This document shows, piece after piece, positions 26,756 through 64,000 of a stretch of 64,000 nt of DNA. Both the position numbers and the translations under genes were made by a program. The first letter of the stretch is position 1, and each line of letters begins with the position of its first letter. Source of the stretch: Candidatus Woesearchaeota archaeon. GTDB taxonomy: Archaea > Nanobdellota > Nanobdellia > Pacearchaeales > GW2011-AR1. The notes beneath the pieces were generated by a model. That model saw only the letters and a program-made list of their open reading frames with translations, searched no databases and had not been told where the DNA came from. Location: positions 30,206 to 94,205 of the forward strand of contig CAZNUV010000003.1 in the NCBI GenBank assembly GCA_964576755.1, in the 5' to 3' direction.

Positions 26756-26908
26756 TGGCCCTGGAGGGATTTGAACCCCCGACACCTAGGTGACTCTTAT
26801 GTGTTATCTTAAACTATTACAGTTTCTTTGATTCCAGGAACCTTTCTTTTCTAAAGAAAGGGAGCCTATTAAGAGCCTAGTGCTCTAACCAAACTGAGCT
26901 ACAGAGCC
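26756..26908 (-). tRNA. tRNA-Lys (anticodon CUU) with a 78-nt intron at the canonical 37/38 position (intron 26792..26869)
   Basis: Hand-folded: GGCTCTG TA GCTC AGTTTGGTTA GAGC A CTAGG CTCTTA | intron | A CCTAG GTGTC GGGGG TTCAAAT CCCTC CAGGGCC A. BHB-like junction: central helix CTCT/AGAG flanked by 3-nt bulges TAA and TCA. Confidence 0.85.
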
Positions 26909-51508: not shown

Positions 51509-54010
51509 TTATTTTAAATAAATTGCAGGTTTTCCTGGTTTTGCTTTTTTTGCCTTACCTTCAGGATCATGCTTGGTTTTTTCATTTACTCCATAAATAT
51601 TTATTTTTAATTGGATAGCCTTTTCTAAGTTTTTTATTTCTTTTAAATAAGATTCTTTTTCTGAAGGGATTACATAGATAAATGCCTTTGTTAATTTTTT
51701 ATTTTCTCTCTTTTCTAGAATCTCTTTAATATGGATTATCTCTTTAGTTAAATTTTCTAATATCTGTCTTGGTTTTTTTGAATTCTTATTTATCTCCTCT
51801 TTTTTATATTCTGGCCATTTTTCTAAACTAATAAATTTATTTCCAGATTTATTATTTCCAATCTGGGCCCATAACTCTTCTGCAATATGTGGGCAGAATG
51901 GCGAGAGAAGCTTAATTGCAGATTCTAAATCTTTTTTTGCAGTTTGTTTTTCTTCAATTATTTGATCAAATAATTGCTTAATTTTAATTGTTGCAATCCT
52001 ATATCTAAATTCTTCAATATCTTCTCCAACCTGCTTGATTGTTTTATTTAATAATTCAGAAAGTTTTGTAGAAGTTTTTGTTAGGTTAATTTTAGGGATA
52101 TTGAGAATTAACTTTTTAGTAAATCTTAAACTTCCTTGAATTCCTTTTTCAGACCACTCTCTTGGTTTGTCTGGTTCTGCAAGAGAAAGTAAGAAATACC
52201 GTGCAGTATCAATTCCATATTTTTCAGAAACAGCGTCAGGGTTAACAACATTTCCCTTAGATTTAGACATTTTATTTCCACCCTCTCCGTGTAGCATTCC
52301 TTGGTGAAATAATTTCTTTGCAGGCTCTCTAAAATTAATTAATCCTAAATCTGCTAGGAATTTAGTATAAAACCTAAAATAAATCAAGTGCATACACGCG
52401 TGTTCTGCACCACCAATATACTGATCAATAGGGCACCATGCCTCAACTTTATCTTTATCAAAGATTTTTTTATCATTATTAGGATCACAATATCTTAGAA
52501 AATACCATGAAGAATTTACAAAAGTATCCATTGTGTCTGTTTCTCTTTTTCCTTCTCCACCACACTTAGGACATTTTACATTAACCCACTCCTTATTAGT
52601 TTCAAGAGGATTCCCTTTTCCAAATTTTACCTGTTTAGGAAGTTCTACAGGTAGGTCTTTTTCAGGAACAGGAACAGCACCACATTCTTTACAGTGTATA
52701 ATTGGAATCGGAGTCCCCCAGTATCTCTGTCTAGAAATTCCCCAGTCTTTTAATCTAAAATTAATTATTTTTTTACCAAAACCCTTTTTTTCAATATAAT
52801 CTGCCATTTTAGGTAGTGCTTTTCTATTATCCATTCCAGAAAATTCTCCAGAATTAAACAATATTCCATCATCTGTGAATGCATCATCAAAATCTTTTGG
52901 ATCTATCTTTTTCCCATCCTTACTTATCACAAACTTTAATGGAATTTTGTATTTTCTTGCAAATCTAAAGTCTCTCTTATCATGAGCATCACACATTACA
53001 ACTCCAGAGCCATACATCAAAACAAAATTGGAAATATAAATTGGAATTTTTTCATTGTTAAGAGGATTTATTGCATATTTTCCTGTGAATACCCCTTGTT
53101 TTTCCTTTTCCTGATTTGCTCTATCAATAAGTGTTTGTTTTTTTACTTTTTCTATAAAGTCTTTTGCAGGTTTTTCATACTCTGTGCCTGCGACAAGTTC
53201 TGGTATAAGTGGGCTTTCTGGTGCAACTGCTAAAAATGTTACACTATATGTTGTGTCACACCTTGTTGTAAATGTAGGTAAGACCTTATCTGAATTTTCT
53301 AGTTTAAAATAAATATCCACACCATGAGATTTTCCAATCCAATTCTTCTGCATTGCCTTTGTTTTTTCAGGCCACCCATCTAATTTGTCTATAGAGGTGT
53401 ATAACTCGTCTGCATAATCTGTTATTTTGAAATACCACTGTTTAAGATTTTTAATTTCTACTTCTGTGTCTTCATGTCTCCAACATTTTCCATTCTGAAC
53501 TTGTTCATTTGCTAAGACAGTATCGCATTTAGGGCACCAATTAACATCAGACTCTTTTTGATGTGCAAGATTCTTCTCAAGCATTTTTAAGAATATCCAC
53601 TGATCCCATTTATAATAATTAGGGTCTGCAGTATTTACCATCCTTGACCAATCATAACTAATTCCTAGTTCTTTTTGTTGTTTTATATAATTCTTAATTG
53701 CATTATTTGTGTACTCTTGGGGACGTGTTCCTGCTTTTATTGCTGCATTTTCAGCAGGAAGGCCTAGGGCATCATAACCCATGGGATGGAGAACATTAAA
53801 TCCTTGCATTTTCTTATACCTTGCAAGGATATCTCCGATAACATAATTTAAAGCATGGCCCATGTGAAGCCCATTGCCAGAAGGATAAGGAAACATTACA
53901 AGAACATAATACTTTTCTTCCTTAGAATTTTTTTTAACTTCAAATATTTTCTTTAATTCCCAAGCTTTTTGCCACTTACTCTCAATTTTTTTAAAATTTA
54001 CTTCTTCCAT
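51509..54010 (-). CDS. leuS: Leucyl-tRNA synthetase, bacterial type
   Basis: FPYPSGNGLHMGHALNY, PMGYDALGLPAENAA, NWCPKCDTVLANEQV, KMSKSKGN. Confidence 0.93.
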   Translation of the reverse strand: MEEVNFKKIESKWQKAWELKKIFEVKKNSKEEKYYVLVMFPYPSGNGLHMGHALNYVIGDILARYKKMQGFNVLHPMGYDALGLPAENAAIKAGTRPQEYTNNAIKNYIKQQKELGISYDWSRMVNTADPNYYKWDQWIFLKMLEKNLAHQKESDVNWCPKCDTVLANEQVQNGKCWRHEDTEVEIKNLKQWYFKITDYADELYTSIDKLDGWPEKTKAMQKNWIGKSHGVDIYFKLENSDKVLPTFTTRCDTTYSVTFLAVAPESPLIPELVAGTEYEKPAKDFIEKVKKQTLIDRANQEKEKQGVFTGKYAINPLNNEKIPIYISNFVLMYGSGVVMCDAHDKRDFRFARKYKIPLKFVISKDGKKIDPKDFDDAFTDDGILFNSGEFSGMDNRKALPKMADYIEKKGFGKKIINFRLKDWGISRQRYWGTPIPIIHCKECGAVPVPEKDLPVELPKQVKFGKGNPLETNKEWVNVKCPKCGGEGKRETDTMDTFVNSSWYFLRYCDPNNDKKIFDKDKVEAWCPIDQYIGGAEHACMHLIYFRFYTKFLADLGLINFREPAKKLFHQGMLHGEGGNKMSKSKGNVVNPDAVSEKYGIDTARYFLLSLAEPDKPREWSEKGIQGSLRFTKKLILNIPKINLTKTSTKLSELLNKTIKQVGEDIEEFRYRIATIKIKQLFDQIIEEKQTAKKDLESAIKLLSPFCPHIAEELWAQIGNNKSGNKFISLEKWPEYKKEEINKNSKKPRQILENLTKEIIHIKEILEKRENKKLTKAFIYVIPSEKESYLKEIKNLEKAIQLKINIYGVNEKTKHDPEGKAKKAKPGKPAIYLK

Positions 54011-58787: not shown

Positions 58788-60827
58788 TTACTCTTTTTTC
58801 TCAGAATTTTGGTTCTTTTGACCATTAATATCGTGTTTTTTATCATGGATTTTTTCAATATCCATTCTATGGAGCAGGTCAGCAAGTCTTTCTTTATTTG
58901 CTTCTTGGTCTTTAACTTGGATTATCTCAAAGAATTTAGTAGCATCACTAGAAGGAATTTCTTTTACATCTATAGCTCTTAATAGTTTTTTTCTTACATT
59001 ATCTGAAACAAGAATTTTTGATTTATTAGAGTCAGATAATTTTTTTGCAAGACTTATAGTTTTACCAAGACCAGTATACTTTAATTTTCCATTTTCAATA
59101 TTTGCTACAAGGTCTCCAGAGTTTATTCCAATATTAAACTCAATCTTATCCATGAATTTTTTGTTATGTTCTAAAAGACTCTTATACAAATTAAATCCTA
59201 CTCTTGTTGCAATAATCTCATTTTTAAAAGTTCTAGTTACAACTGGAGAGAAAATTATTAGGATATAGTGTCCCTTAAAATCTACAACCCCTTTCTTTTC
59301 TTTAATTGTTCCTAATAATTTTAATAGTTCTTGTTTTGCATTATTTTTCAAGGTTTCTGAATTTAATACTTTAAGAGAAATAACTGCTGAATTTTCTTTT
59401 TCTCCTTTTAAAACAATACTGGATTCTGCATTACCTTTTCCAATAATAGGACTACTTCCTAAAACAGGAGTTTTGTCTTCTTTTAATTCTACTCCTTTAA
59501 ATTTATCTTTTAACTTAACTGTCCTTCTTCTAAATCTTATTAATAACCAGGTTCCAACCAATGCAAGTAAAATAATTATAAACACCCATATAAACATTAA
59601 ATTCTTAAAAGGGTTCAAGGTTCTTAATTCGTTAATTGATATTGCATTTCCAGTTAATAGGACTGACTTTTCTGCAATATTTGAACCATCACTTGCTACA
59701 ATGCTATATTCTCCTTGAGGGGCCTTTAATTTAAACCTCTTTTCTTCTCCAATTTTTAAATCTAATTCTACTGTTTCAACTTGGTCCCCGATGGTTATTT
59801 CAATTAATTGATTGTACCTTGAATTTCCAACATTTCTTATAACTAATATGGAATCAATAAATTCAAAATCTATTTTTTGTATTTCTTGTAATCTAAAAGT
59901 TTTAGATTCAGATATATCCTTATATTCTGCATTAATTATCCACTCCCCTGCAGTATCTGTAGTTTCAAAATTAACATGAGTTATTTCTCCTGATTTAACT
60001 GAGATTTCTTTTTTAACATTTTTTGGAGAAGTTACTGTTGCATAAATAGTGTCATAAATTTTTTCTTTTGATTGATCAAATAAATCTAAACCAACTGCAA
60101 GCTCTTCTTCAGGGCTTAATTCTAAACTAGAAAGACTGATATCAATAGATGTAGGTATTTGATTAACTTTGTAGGTGGTATTTATTGTTCCTTGATTTCT
60201 AATCTTATTATTTTCTCCCCTATCATAAACAGCAATGATTAAAACATTCGTACCTGCTTTTCTTGTTGCTGAAATTTGGAACTCTATATTGGCAATTCCT
60301 TTTTCAATTGCTTGAGTTAAATCATCTGATCCTGAAATTTCTATAAAACCATCTAATAACTGTCCGTTTGCCTTTGTTGCCTCCACAGTTAAAATTGCCT
60401 TATCTCCAGGGTTATAATTCTCTTTATTGAGTTTTGTTTTAATTAAAATTTCATCAGTGATAGTAAATGTTTTTGTATCAGCTTCTTCATCTCCAAGTGA
60501 TGCAGATACATAGCAATTTCCAGACATTTCACCAATAGTATCTTTTAAAATTGGGATATAATTTGAATAAGAGTGTTTTTCATTTGCAGGAAAACCTTCT
60601 TCATTTGCAGGAATTTTATAAATATTAATTTTTTCAGGTCCGCAAATTAAATCTACTTCAAAAAATCCATAAACAGAACTTGGAAGAATAGTAACAACAA
60701 AATTTAATTTGTCTCCAAAATTATAAACGTCTTTTGGTTCAGAAATTTCTATTTTTGCAAAAACCATCGGACATATTAATAAGAATATTCCGAACAGAAA
60801 AAATAAGGACAATAGACGTGTTTTCAT
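58788..60827 (-). CDS. Receptor-like membrane protein: signal peptide, ~400-aa beta-rich ectodomain, one TM helix, and a cytosolic degenerate class III cyclase-homology domain
   Basis: C-terminal IGINSGDLVANIENGKLKYTGLGKTISLAKKLSDSNKSKILVSDNVRKKL aligns by eye with the IGxHxGxVxxGxxG...YxxxGDxVNxAxRxES...IxVS core. The metal-binding Asp positions are not conserved. Confidence 0.55.
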   Translation of the reverse strand: MKTRLLSLFFLFGIFLLICPMVFAKIEISEPKDVYNFGDKLNFVVTILPSSVYGFFEVDLICGPEKINIYKIPANEEGFPANEKHSYSNYIPILKDTIGEMSGNCYVSASLGDEEADTKTFTITDEILIKTKLNKENYNPGDKAILTVEATKANGQLLDGFIEISGSDDLTQAIEKGIANIEFQISATRKAGTNVLIIAVYDRGENNKIRNQGTINTTYKVNQIPTSIDISLSSLELSPEEELAVGLDLFDQSKEKIYDTIYATVTSPKNVKKEISVKSGEITHVNFETTDTAGEWIINAEYKDISESKTFRLQEIQKIDFEFIDSILVIRNVGNSRYNQLIEITIGDQVETVELDLKIGEEKRFKLKAPQGEYSIVASDGSNIAEKSVLLTGNAISINELRTLNPFKNLMFIWVFIIILLALVGTWLLIRFRRRTVKLKDKFKGVELKEDKTPVLGSSPIIGKGNAESSIVLKGEKENSAVISLKVLNSETLKNNAKQELLKLLGTIKEKKGVVDFKGHYILIIFSPVVTRTFKNEIIATRVGFNLYKSLLEHNKKFMDKIEFNIGINSGDLVANIENGKLKYTGLGKTISLAKKLSDSNKSKILVSDNVRKKLLRAIDVKEIPSSDATKFFEIIQVKDQEANKERLADLLHRMDIEKIHDKKHDINGQKNQNSEKKE

Positions 60828-60944: not shown

Positions 60945-62081
60945 ATGAAAAATAAGAAAAAAACTGGTGACATGAAAGTGACTCCTTGGGAAGTTTCTGG
61001 AGATATAAATTATGATAAGATTATTAAGAAATTTGGAGTTCAGGAGATAGATGATAAACTTTTAACAAGAATTCAAAAACATACAAAAGACCTGCATTTT
61101 ATGCTTAAAAGAAAGGTATTTTTTGCACATAGAGACTTAAATTGGCTGTTAGATGAATATGAAAAAGGAAATAAGTTTTTCCTTTATACTGGTTGTGGGC
61201 CTTCAGGACCTATTCATTTAGGGCATTTAACTACTTGGATTTTTACAAAATGGTTACAAGATACTTTTGGAGTAGAATTATGGTTTCAATTTACAGATGA
61301 TGAAAAGTTTTTATTTAAAAATCAGTCTTATGAAGAAATCCAAAAATGGATGTATGAAAATATGTTAGATATTATTGCACTTGGTTTTGACCCTAAAAAA
61401 ACACATTTTATAATTGATACAAAACATGCTAACTTAATTTACCCAGAAGCAATCAAAGTTGCTAAAAAAATAAGTTATTCAATGGTACGTGCTGCTTTTG
61501 GATTAAAAGAAGACACAAATATTGGTAGTATTTTTTATACATCAATGCAGGCTGTGCCTGCATTTTTGCCTAGCATTCTAAAGAAAAAGAATATTCCTTG
61601 TTTAATTCCACATGCAATTGATCAGGATCCACACTTTAGACTTACTAGAGATATTTTACCAAAATTAGGATATTATAAACCTGCCTCAATACAAGATTCA
61701 TTTTTACCTCCATTAACTGGTGTTAAAGGAAAAATGTCTTCAACAGAATCCCACATTGCTATTCTAACTACAGACACTCCAAAAGAGGTTGAACATAAAA
61801 TTAAAAAATATGCTTTTTCAGGTGGCAAAGATACGCTAGAGGAGCATAGAAAACATGGAGGAAACCCAGATATTGATGTTTCATTTCAATATTTGAGAAT
61901 GTTATTTGAACCAGATGATTTAAAACTTGCAAAAATTGAACAAGACTATCGCTCTGGAGAACTTTTATCAGGACAATTAAAAGAAATTTTAATAAAAAAG
62001 ATTAATGCTTTTTTAGCACATCATCAAAAAGAAAGACAAAAAGCTAAAAAAACGATTGATAAGTTTATTTTAAAGATTTAA
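60945..62081 (+). CDS. trpS: Tryptophanyl-tRNA synthetase, archaeal/eukaryotic type
   Basis: VTPWEVSG..INYDKIIKKFG, YTGCGPSGPIHLGHL, KMSSTE. AGTTTTATAAA box lies 21 nt upstream. Confidence 0.88.
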   Translation: MKNKKKTGDMKVTPWEVSGDINYDKIIKKFGVQEIDDKLLTRIQKHTKDLHFMLKRKVFFAHRDLNWLLDEYEKGNKFFLYTGCGPSGPIHLGHLTTWIFTKWLQDTFGVELWFQFTDDEKFLFKNQSYEEIQKWMYENMLDIIALGFDPKKTHFIIDTKHANLIYPEAIKVAKKISYSMVRAAFGLKEDTNIGSIFYTSMQAVPAFLPSILKKKNIPCLIPHAIDQDPHFRLTRDILPKLGYYKPASIQDSFLPPLTGVKGKMSSTESHIAILTTDTPKEVEHKIKKYAFSGGKDTLEEHRKHGGNPDIDVSFQYLRMLFEPDDLKLAKIEQDYRSGELLSGQLKEILIKKINAFLAHHQKERQKAKKTIDKFILKI

Positions 62082-62109
62082 AATTAGTAAGATAATCATT
62101 TTAAGAAAA

Positions 62110-62706
62110 CTAAACTGTGAGATATTTTTTTCTAGAAATTTTTGATTTTTCCCAGATTTCTAGGGCCTTAAAATGGTAAGGAATCTTAAAAATTTTTCTG
62201 TAGTCTAAACTTAATTGGTTTAAATTAATTTTATGAAATCCAGCAAGATCTGCAAAAATTTCTTTATCACTATCTTCATCTCCAGTTCTAATATCTTCTG
62301 GCCTAATTAAACGATTACTTCTATCTTTTATGTCTAGTATTAATAAATCTGAGTTATTAGTATACTGAATAAGATGACCTATTTCATGTCCAAGAATAAA
62401 ATTGTTTAGATTAACATTTTTTTGATTTTCTTGAGAAATGTGGATGTGAGTTTCTCCGAAAAAAGGATTTTTATAACTACAGATCGCTCCTAAAGATATT
62501 TTAGATTTTAAAATGGCTGGACTAAGATATTTTGAAGATTGATCAGCATTTTTTATATTTAAGGTCCCATAACGGGCCCTTAACTTTATTAAATGTACAA
62601 ATAAGTTATCCACATCTTGATGATAGTAAATACTAACATCTTCTGAAACAGGAATCTTTAAACCTTCCATACCTTTTAATGTAATTAATTTTTTTCTCAC
62701 CTTCAT
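62110..62706 (-). CDS. HExxH protein (putative Zn-metallopeptidase, family unassigned), paralog of 63402..>64000
   Basis: GHEIGHLIQY. Shares IP....V..(Y/H)Y, R.NRL.R, E..AD..G.H and FK..IW.KSKI blocks with its paralog. Lies 3 nt after the lysozyme stop. Confidence 0.5.
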   Translation of the reverse strand: MKVRKKLITLKGMEGLKIPVSEDVSIYYHQDVDNLFVHLIKLRARYGTLNIKNADQSSKYLSPAILKSKISLGAICSYKNPFFGETHIHISQENQKNVNLNNFILGHEIGHLIQYTNNSDLLILDIKDRSNRLIRPEDIRTGDEDSDKEIFADLAGFHKINLNQLSLDYRKIFKIPYHFKALEIWEKSKISRKKYLTV

Positions 62707-62709
62707 TTT

Positions 62710-63405
62710 CTAATTCTTAACTCTGTATTTTATATCTTTAGAGAGATTTTTAACCCAAGGTCTAAGTTCTAATCCAGCATTATTAATACTACCAATTTTT
62801 TCTACAAGTCTTTCAGCCCTGTTATGGTGTGGCCCTCTATAAAAATCAGAGTCTTCTATTTCAACAGCCGCCCAGTCATAATCTTCATCTATAAGGGCTT
62901 GTTTATATTTTTTAAAACTCTTAAGGCCCTTGTAACCCATGCAAAAAGACATATTGACAAGAACTTCTTGTGCACGAGAGTCTAATTCTTCATAATCTTT
63001 TTTACTTACAAATTTTTGTGCATCTCTAATTGCATTATAAATATTTTGATCAAGAGTATATGCAATTTGATTTTCTGTTAGATTTGTCTCACCATTATAG
63101 ATTTTTTTAAAATCTGCTCCTGATTCTTCTATTAATTTTCTTGCAAGTGGATTTCCTTGAAGATTAAGTCCAACTCCAATAGTTCTATTTCCTATTGCTC
63201 TATCTCCAGGATAAAGTCTTTTTCCTGTTGCATCATCATAAACCCAATCTCTTTTTCCTTCATCGATTGTAAGTGTTTTTACAAGATTATTATGAACTTG
63301 CTGGGAATTTAATTTTTGTCTTTCAGGCATTTCACATTTAAAGAGTGCTGCTGCACTTATTCCTGCAATTGCCAATGCTGTTAAAATTTTTTTTCCTGGT
63401 TTCAT
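62710..63405 (-). CDS. T4-type lysozyme (GH24 muramidase) with an N-terminal signal/anchor sequence
   Basis: Start set at ATG 63405 (ATGA overlap with the upstream stop, SD AGGGAGAG). MKPGKKILTALAIAGISAAALF, then LTIDEGKRDWVYDDATGK..RTIGVGLNL and LDSRAQEVLVNMSFCMG...YDWAAVEI...NRAERLV, colinear with T4 lysozyme including the E11/D20/T26 equivalents. Confidence 0.8.
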   Translation of the reverse strand: MKPGKKILTALAIAGISAAALFKCEMPERQKLNSQQVHNNLVKTLTIDEGKRDWVYDDATGKRLYPGDRAIGNRTIGVGLNLQGNPLARKLIEESGADFKKIYNGETNLTENQIAYTLDQNIYNAIRDAQKFVSKKDYEELDSRAQEVLVNMSFCMGYKGLKSFKKYKQALIDEDYDWAAVEIEDSDFYRGPHHNRAERLVEKIGSINNAGLELRPWVKNLSKDIKYRVKN

Positions 63406-64000
63406 TGTCTTACTCTCCCTAACCAATCATTTATTTTCCCAACTCCAATTCCTACATAATTTTCTCTCTTAGGAATTTTTGATTTTTTCCAAATTTTAAA
63501 GGCCAGAGGATAACTCAGTGATCTAAATAATTCTGGATGATAAATATTTCCCTTATGGAGACTTAATCCATGAATCCCCCCAATATCTGCCCTAACTTCT
63601 TCATCTTCTATCTCACTGAATCTAGTTAAACGATTATTTCTATCTAAAATATCTTGAGCTAGTATTTCCATAGGTTCTAGTTGATGACAAGATAAATTTA
63701 AAACATAATCTAAAAAATGTGTCTCTTCATGTGCTAAATTAAGGGTATCTTCATCAAAATATTTTGATTTTTTTAAAAATATATGGTTATTTATTTTTTT
63801 ATTAATAGAAAATGTATGGAGCCTACCACAAACAAAAGGGTCTGATTTAAATCTTTCAATAATTCTTTCCTCTTGTTTCATTTTTTCAGGAGTTAAATTA
63901 TTATAATCTGCAATTAATCTTAAACTATGTTCTGAGATATCCTCAACAAATCCATCATAGTGAAGATTCACATTCTTAGGTATAGGAATCTGTAAATCTT
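63402..64000 (-). CDS. HExxH protein, paralog of 62110..62706, 5'-partial (continues past the window end)
   Basis: The frame stays open upstream of the track's GTG (..DLQIPIPKNVNLHYDG) and aligns with GLKIPVSEDVSIYYHQ of the paralog. HEETH motif. Confidence 0.5.
   Translation of the reverse strand, partial: DLQIPIPKNVNLHYDGFVEDISEHSLRLIADYNNLTPEKMKQEERIIERFKSDPFVCGRLHTFSINKKINNHIFLKKSKYFDEDTLNLAHEETHFLDYVLNLSCHQLEPMEILAQDILDRNNRLTRFSEIEDEEVRADIGGIHGLSLHKGNIYHPELFRSLSYPLAFKIWKKSKIPKRENYVGIGVGKINDWLGRVRQ

What the first reader, a model, noticed from the sequence alone, without database searches (positions are those of the whole stretch)
62110..64000. Operon of a secreted T4-type lysozyme flanked by two paralogous HExxH proteins in an archaeon
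Seen in the sequence: there are three tightly coupled minus-strand genes, joined by an ATGA overlap at 63402-63405 and a 3-nt gap at 62707-62709. The middle protein has a signal/anchor sequence (MKPGKKILTALAIAGISAAALF). It is colinear with phage T4 lysozyme, including the catalytic Glu (IDEG), Asp (YDD) and Thr (TIGVG) equivalents. Both flanking proteins are paralogs of each other, with HEIGH and HEETH motifs and a shared C-terminal FK..IW.KSKI block, and neither has an obvious signal peptide. Established knowledge: GH24 enzymes cleave bacterial murein, and archaea of this type have no murein. Inference: the locus may be an anti-bacterial or host-attacking toolkit, or a captured phage lysis module. 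The HExxH paralogs could be peptide-stem peptidases, maturation factors or regulators. I do not recognise this three-gene architecture as a described system.
Basis: partly seen in the sequence, partly recalled or inferred. Interest (0 to 1): 0.75.

Follow-up and report, generated by a model that had tools for sequence, protein, structure and literature searches.

The report
DPANN archaeal lysozyme with zincin-like partners
A tiny symbiotic-type archaeon carries a membrane-anchored T4-type lysozyme, probably aimed at bacterial cell walls, co-transcribed with two copies of an unannotated metalloprotease-like family that turns up next to cell-wall-degrading enzymes in several related archaea.

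Summary
Three translationally coupled minus-strand genes lie at 62110-64000, and the window is firmly archaeal (Woesearchaeota-type DPANN).

The middle gene is a T4-lysozyme homologue: E=1e-8 to T4L, with Glu/Asp/Thr conserved. It has an N-terminal Gly/Ala-rich anchor. It belongs to a monophyletic clade of DPANN lysozymes, and in relatives it sits next to the same convergent trpS gene. It is therefore a resident chromosomal gene, not a freshly captured phage module. Archaeal, and specifically DPANN, murein hydrolases are already described in the literature.

The flanking paralogs (29% identical) belong to an unannotated family found, as far as named, in Woese-/Pacearchaeota, with about 80 representatives. 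The family has an invariant HExxH and a conserved downstream Glu, and no signal peptide. A confident AF2 model gives only weak zincin / ImmA-IrrE-like similarity.

Most lysozyme relatives lack these neighbours, and five of nine family members examined stand alone. In four lineages, however, a family member shares an operon with a membrane-anchored murein hydrolase. The hydrolases are of two unrelated folds (GH24 here; SleB-type Hydrolase_2 elsewhere).

The operon also extends beyond the window, with a fourth, membrane-protein gene upstream.

The verdict is a known kind of system (an archaeal anti-murein enzyme) with a new, recurrent accessory family of unknown mechanism. Interest is moderate.

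The parts
62710..63405 (-). 231-aa T4-type (GH24-like) lysozyme with an N-terminal Gly/Ala-rich signal/anchor (residues 7-22 = 63340-63387). Catalytic equivalents: Glu49 (63259-63261), Asp58 (63232-63234), Thr75 (63181-63183).
   Evidence: phmmer against PDB gives E=1.2e-8 to T4 lysozyme over residues 40-202. PHROG lysozyme families hit at 6e-9 and 1e-7. Closest homologues at 36-47% identity carry PF00959. The triad is invariant. Pfam PF00959 itself gives no hit.
62110..62706 (-). 198-aa downstream paralog of the DPANN 'HEETH' zincin-like family. HEIGH lies at 62374-62388 and the conserved Glu149 within 62248-62262. This is the divergent copy: it departs from the family's near-invariant Gly30, Glu109 and Gly155.
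   Evidence: Family HMM gives 132 bits. The AF2 model has pLDDT 89.9. Weak similarity to IrrE, CapP and other zincins. No hydrophobic N-terminus.
63402..64000 (-). Upstream paralog of the same family, with the canonical HEETH at 63717-63731. It is cut by the window end. The full protein is 212 aa (start about 40 nt beyond the window), and its stop overlaps the lysozyme start (ATGA at 63402-63405).
   Evidence: The full gene is seen on the same contig outside the window (L001 3223-3861). Family HMM gives 162 bits. A positional orthologue (39% identity) precedes a 64%-identical lysozyme with the same overlap in another metagenome.
60945..62081 (+). Tryptophanyl-tRNA synthetase, convergent with the operon. 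It is not part of the system but serves as the synteny anchor showing that the locus is chromosomal and ancestral.
   Evidence: PF00579. The same lysozyme -> <- trpS junction occurs in L020 (Ca. Woesearchaeota) and L022. HEETH operon -> <- trpS occurs in L026. TrpRS identities are 71-72%.

Best explanation
This is a chromosomal operon of a Woesearchaeota-type DPANN archaeon. Its core is a membrane-anchored, outward-facing T4-type muramidase. Because the producer has no murein, the enzyme acts on the peptidoglycan of bacteria: a host, prey, or wall debris.

Shown:
- Homology to T4 lysozyme with the catalytic Glu/Asp/Thr intact.
- An N-terminal hydrophobic segment in every member of the DPANN clade.
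- Monophyly of that clade, and conserved synteny with trpS.

Inferred: export, the target substrate and the ecological role.

In this lineage the muramidase is translationally coupled to two paralogs of an unannotated family of about 170-210-aa proteins. The named members of this family are from Woese-/Pacearchaeota.

Shown for the family:
- An invariant HExxH and a near-invariant Glu about 35-40 residues downstream.
- No signal peptide.
- A confident compact alpha/beta model with only weak zincin (ImmA/IrrE/SprT-like) resemblance.
- Members share operons with anchored murein hydrolases of two unrelated folds (GH24; SleB/CwlJ-type Hydrolase_2) in four of nine lineages examined.

Inferred for the family: they are zinc metallopeptidases that serve the murein-degrading function. 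My preferred mechanism, held weakly, is cleavage of the peptide part of murein fragments. This would most likely happen in the cytoplasm after uptake (scavenging of muropeptides by an auxotrophic cell). Alternatively it could happen outside the cell after non-classical release. The two paralogs would have different bond specificities or would work as a pair.

The 181-aa membrane protein encoded just upstream, outside the window, is part of the same transcription unit. Its role is unknown.
For: Lysozyme identity.

Archaeal, chromosomal, vertically kept locus.

Anchor segment in all DPANN homologues.

HEETH family definition and conservation.

Model and weak zincin hits:
- AF2 model.
- BFVD 'IrrE protein', probability 0.98, E=0.016, followed by PolyVal, SprT and other peptidases.
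- PDB profile hits to IrrE and snapalysin at E about 1.
- PADLOC CapP, E=0.002.

Operon linkage with murein hydrolases:
- Window and the same organism.
- L007/L008 (GH24).
- L026 (222-aa signal-peptide protein aligning to a PF07486 domain).
- L030 (281-aa anchored protein with a PF07486 hit on record).

No other accessory family is shared among these operons, so the hydrolase and the HEETH protein are the recurrent pair.

Published precedent that archaea secrete bactericidal murein hydrolases, and that Woese-/Pacearchaeota carry murein-degrading genes: PMC12352652, PMC9723730, PMC8204110.
Against: - No enzymatic evidence exists for any of the three proteins.
- Pfam PF00959 does not detect the lysozyme. 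The window/L007 subclade has changed the T4L W138/Q141-equivalent positions (FYRG instead of WYxQ), so its specificity may differ.
- HEETH proteins have no signal peptide and no match to any known murein peptidase family. Zincins are uncommon among murein peptidases (own knowledge).
- Five of nine family members examined are solitary among housekeeping genes. Five lineages with related lysozymes lack HEETH neighbours. The family's core role may therefore have nothing to do with murein.
- The four linked cases fall into only two subclades. Two of them lie at the same trpS-adjacent locus, so the independent events may number as few as two.
- No muropeptide transporter was identified in the operon.
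Confidence: 0.5

Rival explanations
1. Regulatory or processing protease model. The HEETH paralogs are ImmA/IrrE/CapP-like site-specific cytoplasmic proteases. They would cleave a protein partner, such as a repressor, the 181-aa membrane protein, or the lysozyme precursor's cytoplasmic tail. In this way they would switch the murein-attack operon on or control the amount of hydrolase. The lysozyme part is as in the main explanation.
For: The only family-level signals all point to the ImmA/IrrE group: PDB IrrE at E=0.84; BFVD 'IrrE protein' at probability 0.98; PADLOC CapP at E=0.002. The proteins have no signal peptide. Solitary copies elsewhere fit a general regulatory protease.
Against: No Pfam M78 hit in any of 41 members. 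No HTH or repressor gene lies in or next to any of the operons. The matches cover only the beta-strand plus HExxH helix that all zincins share. The cytoplasmic part of the lysozyme is only about 6 residues.
Confidence: 0.2
2. Coincidental co-transcription. The HEETH family has a housekeeping role unrelated to murein. Duplicated copies simply landed in a variable gene island upstream of trpS that also collects secreted hydrolases.
For: Most members examined are solitary among translation and replication genes. The window and L026 loci are syntenic, so part of the recurrence may be shared ancestry. Lysozyme relatives mostly lack the HEETH genes.
Against: The 4-nt overlap between HEETH and lysozyme is conserved across 36-61% protein divergence. 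L030 shows HEETH with a Hydrolase_2 enzyme in a differently ordered operon on a contig without trpS. Two unrelated hydrolase folds are involved. Murein hydrolases are rare genes in archaea: modular ones occur in about 5% of genomes (PMC12352652).
Confidence: 0.17
3. Phage-derived lysis cassette or provirus remnant. The 181-aa membrane protein would act as a holin or pinholin. The lysozyme would be a signal-arrest-release endolysin. The HExxH proteins would be phage accessory peptidases.
For: The lysozyme has a Gly/Ala-rich, weakly hydrophobic N-terminal segment like SAR endolysins. A small membrane protein with a charged C-terminal half lies upstream in the same operon. The family as a whole is phage-rich: 810 phage records match.
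Against: Lysing a murein-free archaeal cell needs no lysozyme. No viral structural or replication genes are nearby. GC content equals that of the genome. The locus is syntenic across DPANN genomes. No close relative (>34% identity) was found in IMG/VR, and none of the 38 IMG/VR contigs that carry a lysozyme relative encodes a HEETH homologue.
Confidence: 0.06
4. Bacterial or phage contamination, or a chimeric assembly, places a bacterial lysozyme on an archaeal contig.
For: The operon lies 2.7-5.2 kb from the end of the 95-kb contig.
Against: The same gene order was assembled independently in at least 6 datasets from ENA, JGI and Logan. Archaeal genes flank it on both sides. Relatives show the same trpS junction.
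Confidence: 0.02

Closest known systems
Phage T4 lysozyme / GH24 muramidases (Pfam PF00959), including signal-anchored (SAR-type) endolysins
   Same: Colinear catalytic domain with the Glu-8aa-Asp...Thr triad. An N-terminal weakly hydrophobic anchor like SAR endolysins. The closest homologues are PF00959-positive.
   Different: About 29% identity to T4L and at most 42% to any phage protein found. A 13-residue insert between the Asp and the Thr, plus a DPANN-clade insert after the Thr. Encoded on an archaeal chromosome with conserved synteny, not in a virus. Not detected by the Pfam model.
Archaeal peptidoglycan hydrolases used against bacteria: Aciduliprofundum GH25 muramidase; Halogranum Woldo/Danwoldo (PMC12352652); GH23 lytic-transglycosylase proteins of Woese-/Pacearchaeota (PMC9723730, PMC8204110)
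   Same: A murein-cleaving enzyme with an export signal in a murein-free archaeon. Patchy distribution. A DPANN host lineage already suspected of attacking bacteria.
   Different: A different catalytic family (GH24). Single-domain, with no cell-wall-binding module, so it falls outside the published modular survey. Membrane-anchored rather than freely secreted. Embedded in an operon with a new accessory family.
ImmA/IrrE/CapP (MEROPS M78) minimal zincins
   Same: Small size. A beta-strand followed by the HExxH helix and a downstream Glu. No signal peptide. The best, though weak, sequence and fold matches.
   Different: No significant Pfam or PDB match. No adjacent HTH substrate gene. An extra conserved N-terminal beta-rich module with a YHDDGFV motif. 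Named members come only from DPANN archaea.
Bacterial peptidoglycan-recycling peptidases (e.g. MpaA, LdcA) and two-activity endolysins (glycosidase plus peptidase)
   Same: The logic of pairing a glycan-cleaving enzyme with a peptidase. Cytoplasmic location fits recycling enzymes.
   Different: No sequence or fold relationship was detected. No transporter was identified. The function is purely inferred from gene linkage.

Membership tests
GH24 / T4-lysozyme family | Significant sequence homology to characterised members across the catalytic domain | tested here: met
   phmmer against PDB: 569 chains matched, best E=1.2e-8, residues 40-202 against T4L 2-157. PHROG lysozyme families hit at 6e-9 and 1e-7. 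tblastn matched 810 phage records annotated as lysozyme or endolysin.
GH24 / T4-lysozyme family | Catalytic Glu11, Asp20, Thr26 equivalents | tested here: met
   Glu49, Asp58 and Thr75 are invariant in alignments A2 and A4 and in the 12-sequence alignment.
GH24 / T4-lysozyme family | Passes the curated Pfam PF00959 model | tested here: inconclusive
   No PF00959 hit at E<=1 for the window protein. Homologues at 36-47% identity carry PF00959 hits on record, some of them weak. This is a diagnostic, not a defining property.
GH24 / T4-lysozyme family | T4L two-lobe fold and muramidase activity | not tested
ImmA/IrrE (M78) metallopeptidases | HExxH plus a downstream Glu as third zinc ligand | tested here: met
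   H107, E108 and H111 are invariant and E149 is near-invariant in 41 sequences. The metal-site geometry in the model could not be inspected.
ImmA/IrrE (M78) metallopeptidases | Significant match to family profiles or structures | tested here: not met
   No Pfam hit in any of 41 members. PDB profile E=0.84. Foldseek PDB gave nothing below E=0.5. BFVD best E=0.016. PADLOC CapP E=0.002 over 40 residues.
ImmA/IrrE (M78) metallopeptidases | Cognate HTH repressor or substrate gene adjacent | tested here: not met
   No HTH-type protein is in the operons of L001, L007, L026 or L030/31.
Phage holin-SAR endolysin lysis cassette | Endolysin with a weakly hydrophobic N-terminal SAR-like domain | tested here: inconclusive
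   The Gly/Ala/Ser-rich segment at residues 7-22 has hydropathy 1.67. This cannot be told apart from an ordinary signal peptide or anchor with these tools.
Phage holin-SAR endolysin lysis cassette | Resides in a viral or proviral genome next to a holin | tested here: not met
   The flanks are housekeeping genes, synteny is conserved, GC is uniform and there are no viral genes. The 181-aa membrane protein has no PHROG or Pfam match.
Archaeal anti-bacterial peptidoglycan hydrolases (as defined in PMC12352652) | Catalytic murein-hydrolase domain plus a cell-wall-binding domain, with a secretion signal | tested here: not met
   There is a catalytic domain and an N-terminal anchor, but no binding domain was detected. 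It fits the concept but not that survey's modular definition.

The most novel reading that the evidence does not exclude
The 'HEETH' proteins are a new class of zincin-like metallopeptidase, so far seen only in DPANN archaea, dedicated to the peptide moiety of bacterial murein. They may work as a heterodimer of the two paralogs. Together with a membrane-anchored glycan-cleaving enzyme (GH24 or SleB-type, interchangeable) they would form a modular 'cell-wall breaching or scavenging' operon. This would mean that these Woesearchaeota live on bacteria rather than on archaea.
Probability: 0.2. Interest if true: 0.7.

Novelty: new variant of a known kind. Interest (0 to 1): 0.45.

Why it matters
What DPANN archaea live on is a long-standing open question, and murein-degrading genes are the main genomic hint that some of them exploit bacteria.

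This locus adds three things.
1. There is a DPANN-wide clade of anchored T4-type lysozymes that curated domain models miss, so current censuses under-count such enzymes.
2. Conserved synteny indicates that the enzyme is a long-kept chromosomal gene, not phage debris.
3. A concrete, testable partner family, an unannotated zincin-like protein, is linked to two unrelated murein hydrolase types.

All three proteins are small and could be expressed and assayed directly.

If the partner proves to be a murein peptidase or a regulator of the hydrolase, it would define a new accessory component of archaeal anti-bacterial weaponry.

Tried and rejected
- Pfam, NCBIfam and PHROGs on the two HExxH proteins gave nothing significant.
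- The first AF2 model, from a 3-sequence alignment, was poor (pLDDT 58) and its Foldseek hits (macro domains, GTPases) were meaningless. I discarded it.
- The second model (pLDDT 89.9) still gave no PDB match below E=0.5, so I do not assign a family.
- A scan of GTDB species genomes for the HExxH subfamily found nothing. The viral scan also found nothing. The metagenome scan found only the contig already known.
- tblastn of the HExxH protein against 50,697 phage genomes gave no match.
- I checked whether neighbours of related lysozymes (L009-L014, L020-L022) hide HExxH relatives. A family HMM over all six-frame ORFs found none.
- I compared all accessory proteins of the four linked operons for shared families and found none.
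- The 116-aa membrane protein of the window contig gave only a marginal 20-residue match to the 91-aa one of L007. I did not pursue this.
- My by-eye identification of the L026 222-aa protein as SleB-like failed in Pfam, PHROGs and PDB. It was rescued only partly, through a Rhizobium PF07486 protein, so I rate it moderate.
- An attempt to read the organism name from cluster members failed, because the NCBI record carries no names.
- I could not obtain the sequence of the 'dimer-completed zincin' UPI00355F993C reported in PMC13607799 to test whether it is the same family.
- The contamination and provirus readings were considered and rejected, as set out under the rival explanations.
Full report
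**1. What is in the sequence**

The minus strand of 62110-64000 carries three ORFs:
- 62110-62706, 198 aa.
- 62710-63405, 231 aa from the ATG.
- 63402 to beyond the window.

ATGA lies at 63402-63405. A 3-nt AAA spacer follows the TAG stop at 62710-62712.

An exact-match look-up found the 198-aa protein on eight contigs from ENA, JGI, Logan and NCBI assemblies. One of these (L001, a 95-kb contig) is the same sequence continuing past the window. From it:
- The upstream gene is 212 aa in full.
- It is preceded by a 181-aa gene whose stop overlaps its start.
- That 181-aa gene has a TTTATAAA box about 25 nt before its ATG.

The unit therefore has at least four genes: 181 (membrane protein) - 212 - 231 - 198. 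It ends 28 nt before the stop of the convergent trpS.

**2. The organism**

The window encodes archaeal Nre, family-B DNA polymerase, Cdc48, TFIIE-alpha, FEN1 and RadA. It also has a tRNA with a long intron. GC content is a uniform 28-32%, and the operon genes are at 27.5-32%.

Its TrpRS is 71% identical to that of a MAG titled Candidatus Woesearchaeota archaeon, and 72% identical to that of a syntenic metagenome contig. I take it to be a Woesearchaeota-type DPANN archaeon. The exact taxon could not be read from the databases.

**3. The middle gene**

phmmer against all PDB sequences matches T4 lysozyme at E=1.2e-8, over residues 40-202 against T4L 2-157. Two PHROG families annotated as virion or tail lysozyme match at 6e-9 and 1e-7. 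The T4L catalytic Glu11/Asp20/Thr26 correspond to Glu49/Asp58/Thr75, which are invariant in all alignments.

Pfam's PF00959 does not report the protein even at E<=1. The nearest homologues, at 36-47% identity, do have PF00959 on record.

The N-terminus (MKPGKK + ILTALAIAGISAAALF) is a moderately hydrophobic, Gly/Ala-rich segment. Most DPANN relatives have an equivalent segment, in several followed by a linker. Whether it is cleaved cannot be decided here.

**4. Where the lysozyme comes from**

A search of 5.8 billion proteins found few relatives:
- One in another DPANN-like contig, between EF-1alpha and a proteasome subunit (P0005).
- One with unrelated neighbours (P0004).
- One in a P22-like phage contig (P0006).
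- The truncated gene on L007 (64% identical).

A scan of GTDB species genomes with the subfamily alignment found it in MAGs titled Ca. Woesearchaeota, Ca. Pacearchaeota and Ca. Parvarchaeota, at 41-46% identity. Bacterial hits were only at 25-31%.

In a 12-sequence neighbour-joining tree, which is crude, the seven DPANN sequences form one clade apart from the phage and bacterial ones. Isolated-phage genomes match at no more than 32% identity and IMG/VR contigs at no more than 34%.

In the Woesearchaeota and 'Parvarchaeota' MAGs the lysozyme is immediately followed by the convergent trpS, exactly as in the window apart from the inserted 198-aa gene.

The lysozyme is thus an old resident of this chromosomal position in DPANN archaea, not a recently captured phage module.

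**5. The flanking genes**

The two proteins are paralogs (29% identity, E=8e-23). Word-indexed searching found only one other close relative (P0002). An exhaustive HMM search of 1.84 billion representatives then found 78 proteins at E<=1e-3.

In an alignment of 41 of them, HExxH (consensus HEETH) and one Gly are invariant. A Glu about 38 residues after the motif, an N-terminal YHDDGFV-like motif, and an ..A.IGG.. motif are near-invariant.

Sources name the members 'hypothetical protein' of Woesearchaeota, Pacearchaeota or 'archaeon'. One is labelled 'bacterium'. No member has a significant Pfam or NCBIfam hit. None has a hydrophobic N-terminus, because the conserved fold starts at residue ~5.

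With the 41-sequence alignment, AlphaFold2 gives a confident model (pLDDT 89.9, pTM 0.85). Foldseek finds nothing in the PDB below E=0.5.

The only family-level pointers are weak:
- In BFVD the best match is a phage 'IrrE protein' (E=0.016, probability 0.98, TM 0.50 on the target). It is followed by PolyVal, SprT-like and other putative metallopeptidases.
- A PDB profile search gives IrrE and snapalysin at E about 1.
- PADLOC gives the IrrE-type CapP at E=0.002.

All of these cover the beta-strand plus HExxH helix that zincins share.

I conclude that the family is a previously unannotated minimal zincin-like family. It probably consists of zinc metallopeptidases and is not demonstrably a member of M78 or any other named family.

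The downstream copy (HEIGH) departs from three near-invariant family positions but keeps the four putative catalytic and metal residues. It scores lower against the family HMM, 132 against 162 bits. It is the diverged duplicate.

**6. Is the three-gene arrangement conserved?**

Mostly it is not. The contigs or MAGs that carry a related lysozyme but not this operon (P0005, P0004, L020, L021, L022) have no HEETH gene within the sequence available. Five HEETH members examined (L016, L017, L018, L027, L028) are solitary genes among housekeeping genes.

The pair does recur elsewhere:
- On L007/L008, from a different metagenome, a 207-aa member precedes a 64%-identical lysozyme with the same overlap. 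It is 39% identical to the 212-aa copy and shares its C-terminal tail.
- On L026, the locus is syntenic with the window (trpS and the 679-aa gene downstream). Here a 202-aa member closes an operon that opens with a 222-aa signal-peptide protein. That protein aligns over 126 residues to the PF07486 (SleB/CwlJ 'cell wall hydrolase') domain of a Rhizobium protein. The database E-value is 9e-3 and the pairwise E-value is 6e-11, and the Rhizobium segment scores 2.6e-19 on PF07486.
- On L030, a 203-aa member of the same subclade lies two genes upstream of a 281-aa membrane-anchored protein with a PF07486 hit on record.

So in four of nine lineages examined, a HEETH gene shares an operon with an anchored or secreted murein hydrolase, and the hydrolases are of two unrelated folds. 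No other protein family is shared among these operons.

There are caveats:
- The four cases fall into two HEETH subclades.
- Two of them share a locus.
- Nine contexts is a small sample.

**7. Mechanism**

The well-supported part is an exported, membrane-tethered muramidase in a murein-free cell. By established knowledge of GH24, it can only act on bacterial peptidoglycan. This fits published work:
- Archaeal secreted murein hydrolases kill bacteria, and such genes are prominent in Nanoarchaeota sensu GTDB (PMC12352652).
- Woese-/Pacearchaeota carry GH23 lytic transglycosylase proteins, read as signs of attachment to or predation on bacteria (PMC9723730, PMC8204110).

The role of the HEETH paralogs is inference. 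Three facts bear on it: recurrent linkage to two hydrolase folds, a metallopeptidase-like active site, and the absence of export signals. I weakly favour peptidases acting on the peptide part of murein fragments, most simply in the cytoplasm after uptake, which would suit an auxotrophic scavenger. Action outside the cell after non-classical release is the alternative.

The main rivals are an ImmA/IrrE-like regulatory or processing protease and mere co-transcription. I give the composite best explanation 0.5, the regulatory model 0.2, and coincidence 0.17. The provirus and contamination readings are unlikely.

**8. Comparison with what is known, and novelty**

The lysozyme is a new, divergent member of a known family in a host group where murein hydrolases are already discussed. 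It is single-domain and Pfam-negative, so it escapes published domain-based surveys.

Two things appear to be new. One is the HEETH family itself, which has no Pfam, NCBIfam or PHROG annotation and no significant structural neighbour. The other is its repeated operon linkage with murein hydrolases.

A 2026 paper reports an archaeal 'dark' zincin-like HEXXH domain whose metal site is completed across a homodimer (PMC13607799). I could not check whether it is the same family. If it is, two paralogs flanking the lysozyme would suggest a heterodimer.

Overall this is a new variant of a known kind, and interest is moderate (0.45).

Noticed in passing
window 26756-26908 (-): A tRNA gene spanning 153 nt, implying a long intron (Rfam RF00005, 53.7 bits). 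ARAGORN in its bacterial setting missed it. It is a further archaeal hallmark.
   Followed up: no
window 58788-60827 (-): A 679-aa protein with an N-terminal signal-like segment. It has sub-threshold alpha-2-macroglobulin bait-region similarity, a mid-protein transmembrane segment and a sub-threshold C-terminal adenylate/guanylate-cyclase-like domain. A 31%-identical homologue occupies the same position after trpS in L026. It may be a surface sensor or adhesin, and it is conserved beside the hydrolase locus.
   Followed up: partly
window 51509-54010 (-): The leucyl-tRNA synthetase carries the bacterial-type editing domain PF13603 (E=9e-60) in an otherwise archaeal genome.
   Followed up: no
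L001 2681-3226 (+), just beyond window coordinate 64000: A 181-aa protein with at least one transmembrane segment (residues 12-30) and a charged C-terminal half. Its stop overlaps the start of the 212-aa HEETH gene, and a TATA-like box lies about 25 nt upstream. It is therefore the probable first gene of the operon. It has no hit in Pfam, PHROGs or PADLOC.
   Followed up: partly
L026 1897-4609 (+) and L030 469-2556 (+): Related DPANN contigs where a HEETH-family gene shares an operon with a SleB/CwlJ-type (PF07486) cell-wall hydrolase instead of a GH24 lysozyme. The L026 hydrolase is missed by Pfam and was recognised only through a Rhizobium homologue.
   Followed up: yes
L026 2562-2975 (+): A 137-aa protein with an N-terminal transmembrane segment and its own HELYH motif. 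It is unrelated to the HEETH family and sits in the same hydrolase operon. It has a faint hit to a 'putative phage metallopeptidase' (E=0.08).
   Followed up: no
L020 694-2753; L022 3114-4910; window 60945-63405: The junction of lysozyme and convergent trpS is conserved across DPANN genomes whose TrpRS are only 46-71% identical. This is an unusually stable position for a gene usually regarded as mobile.
   Followed up: yes
L001 1498-2211 (+), upstream of the operon: A single-domain KaiC/RadA-like ATPase (PF06745, E=2e-49) and two small unannotated proteins (150 aa; 116 aa with a transmembrane segment) lie between the contig end and the operon. It is unclear whether they belong to the same functional unit.
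   Followed up: no
literature (PMC13607799): A 2026 structural census of archaeal proteomes describes an unclassified zincin-like HEXXH domain (UPI00355F993C) whose third acidic ligand is supplied by the partner subunit of a dimer. It may be the same family as the flanking genes here.
   Followed up: partly
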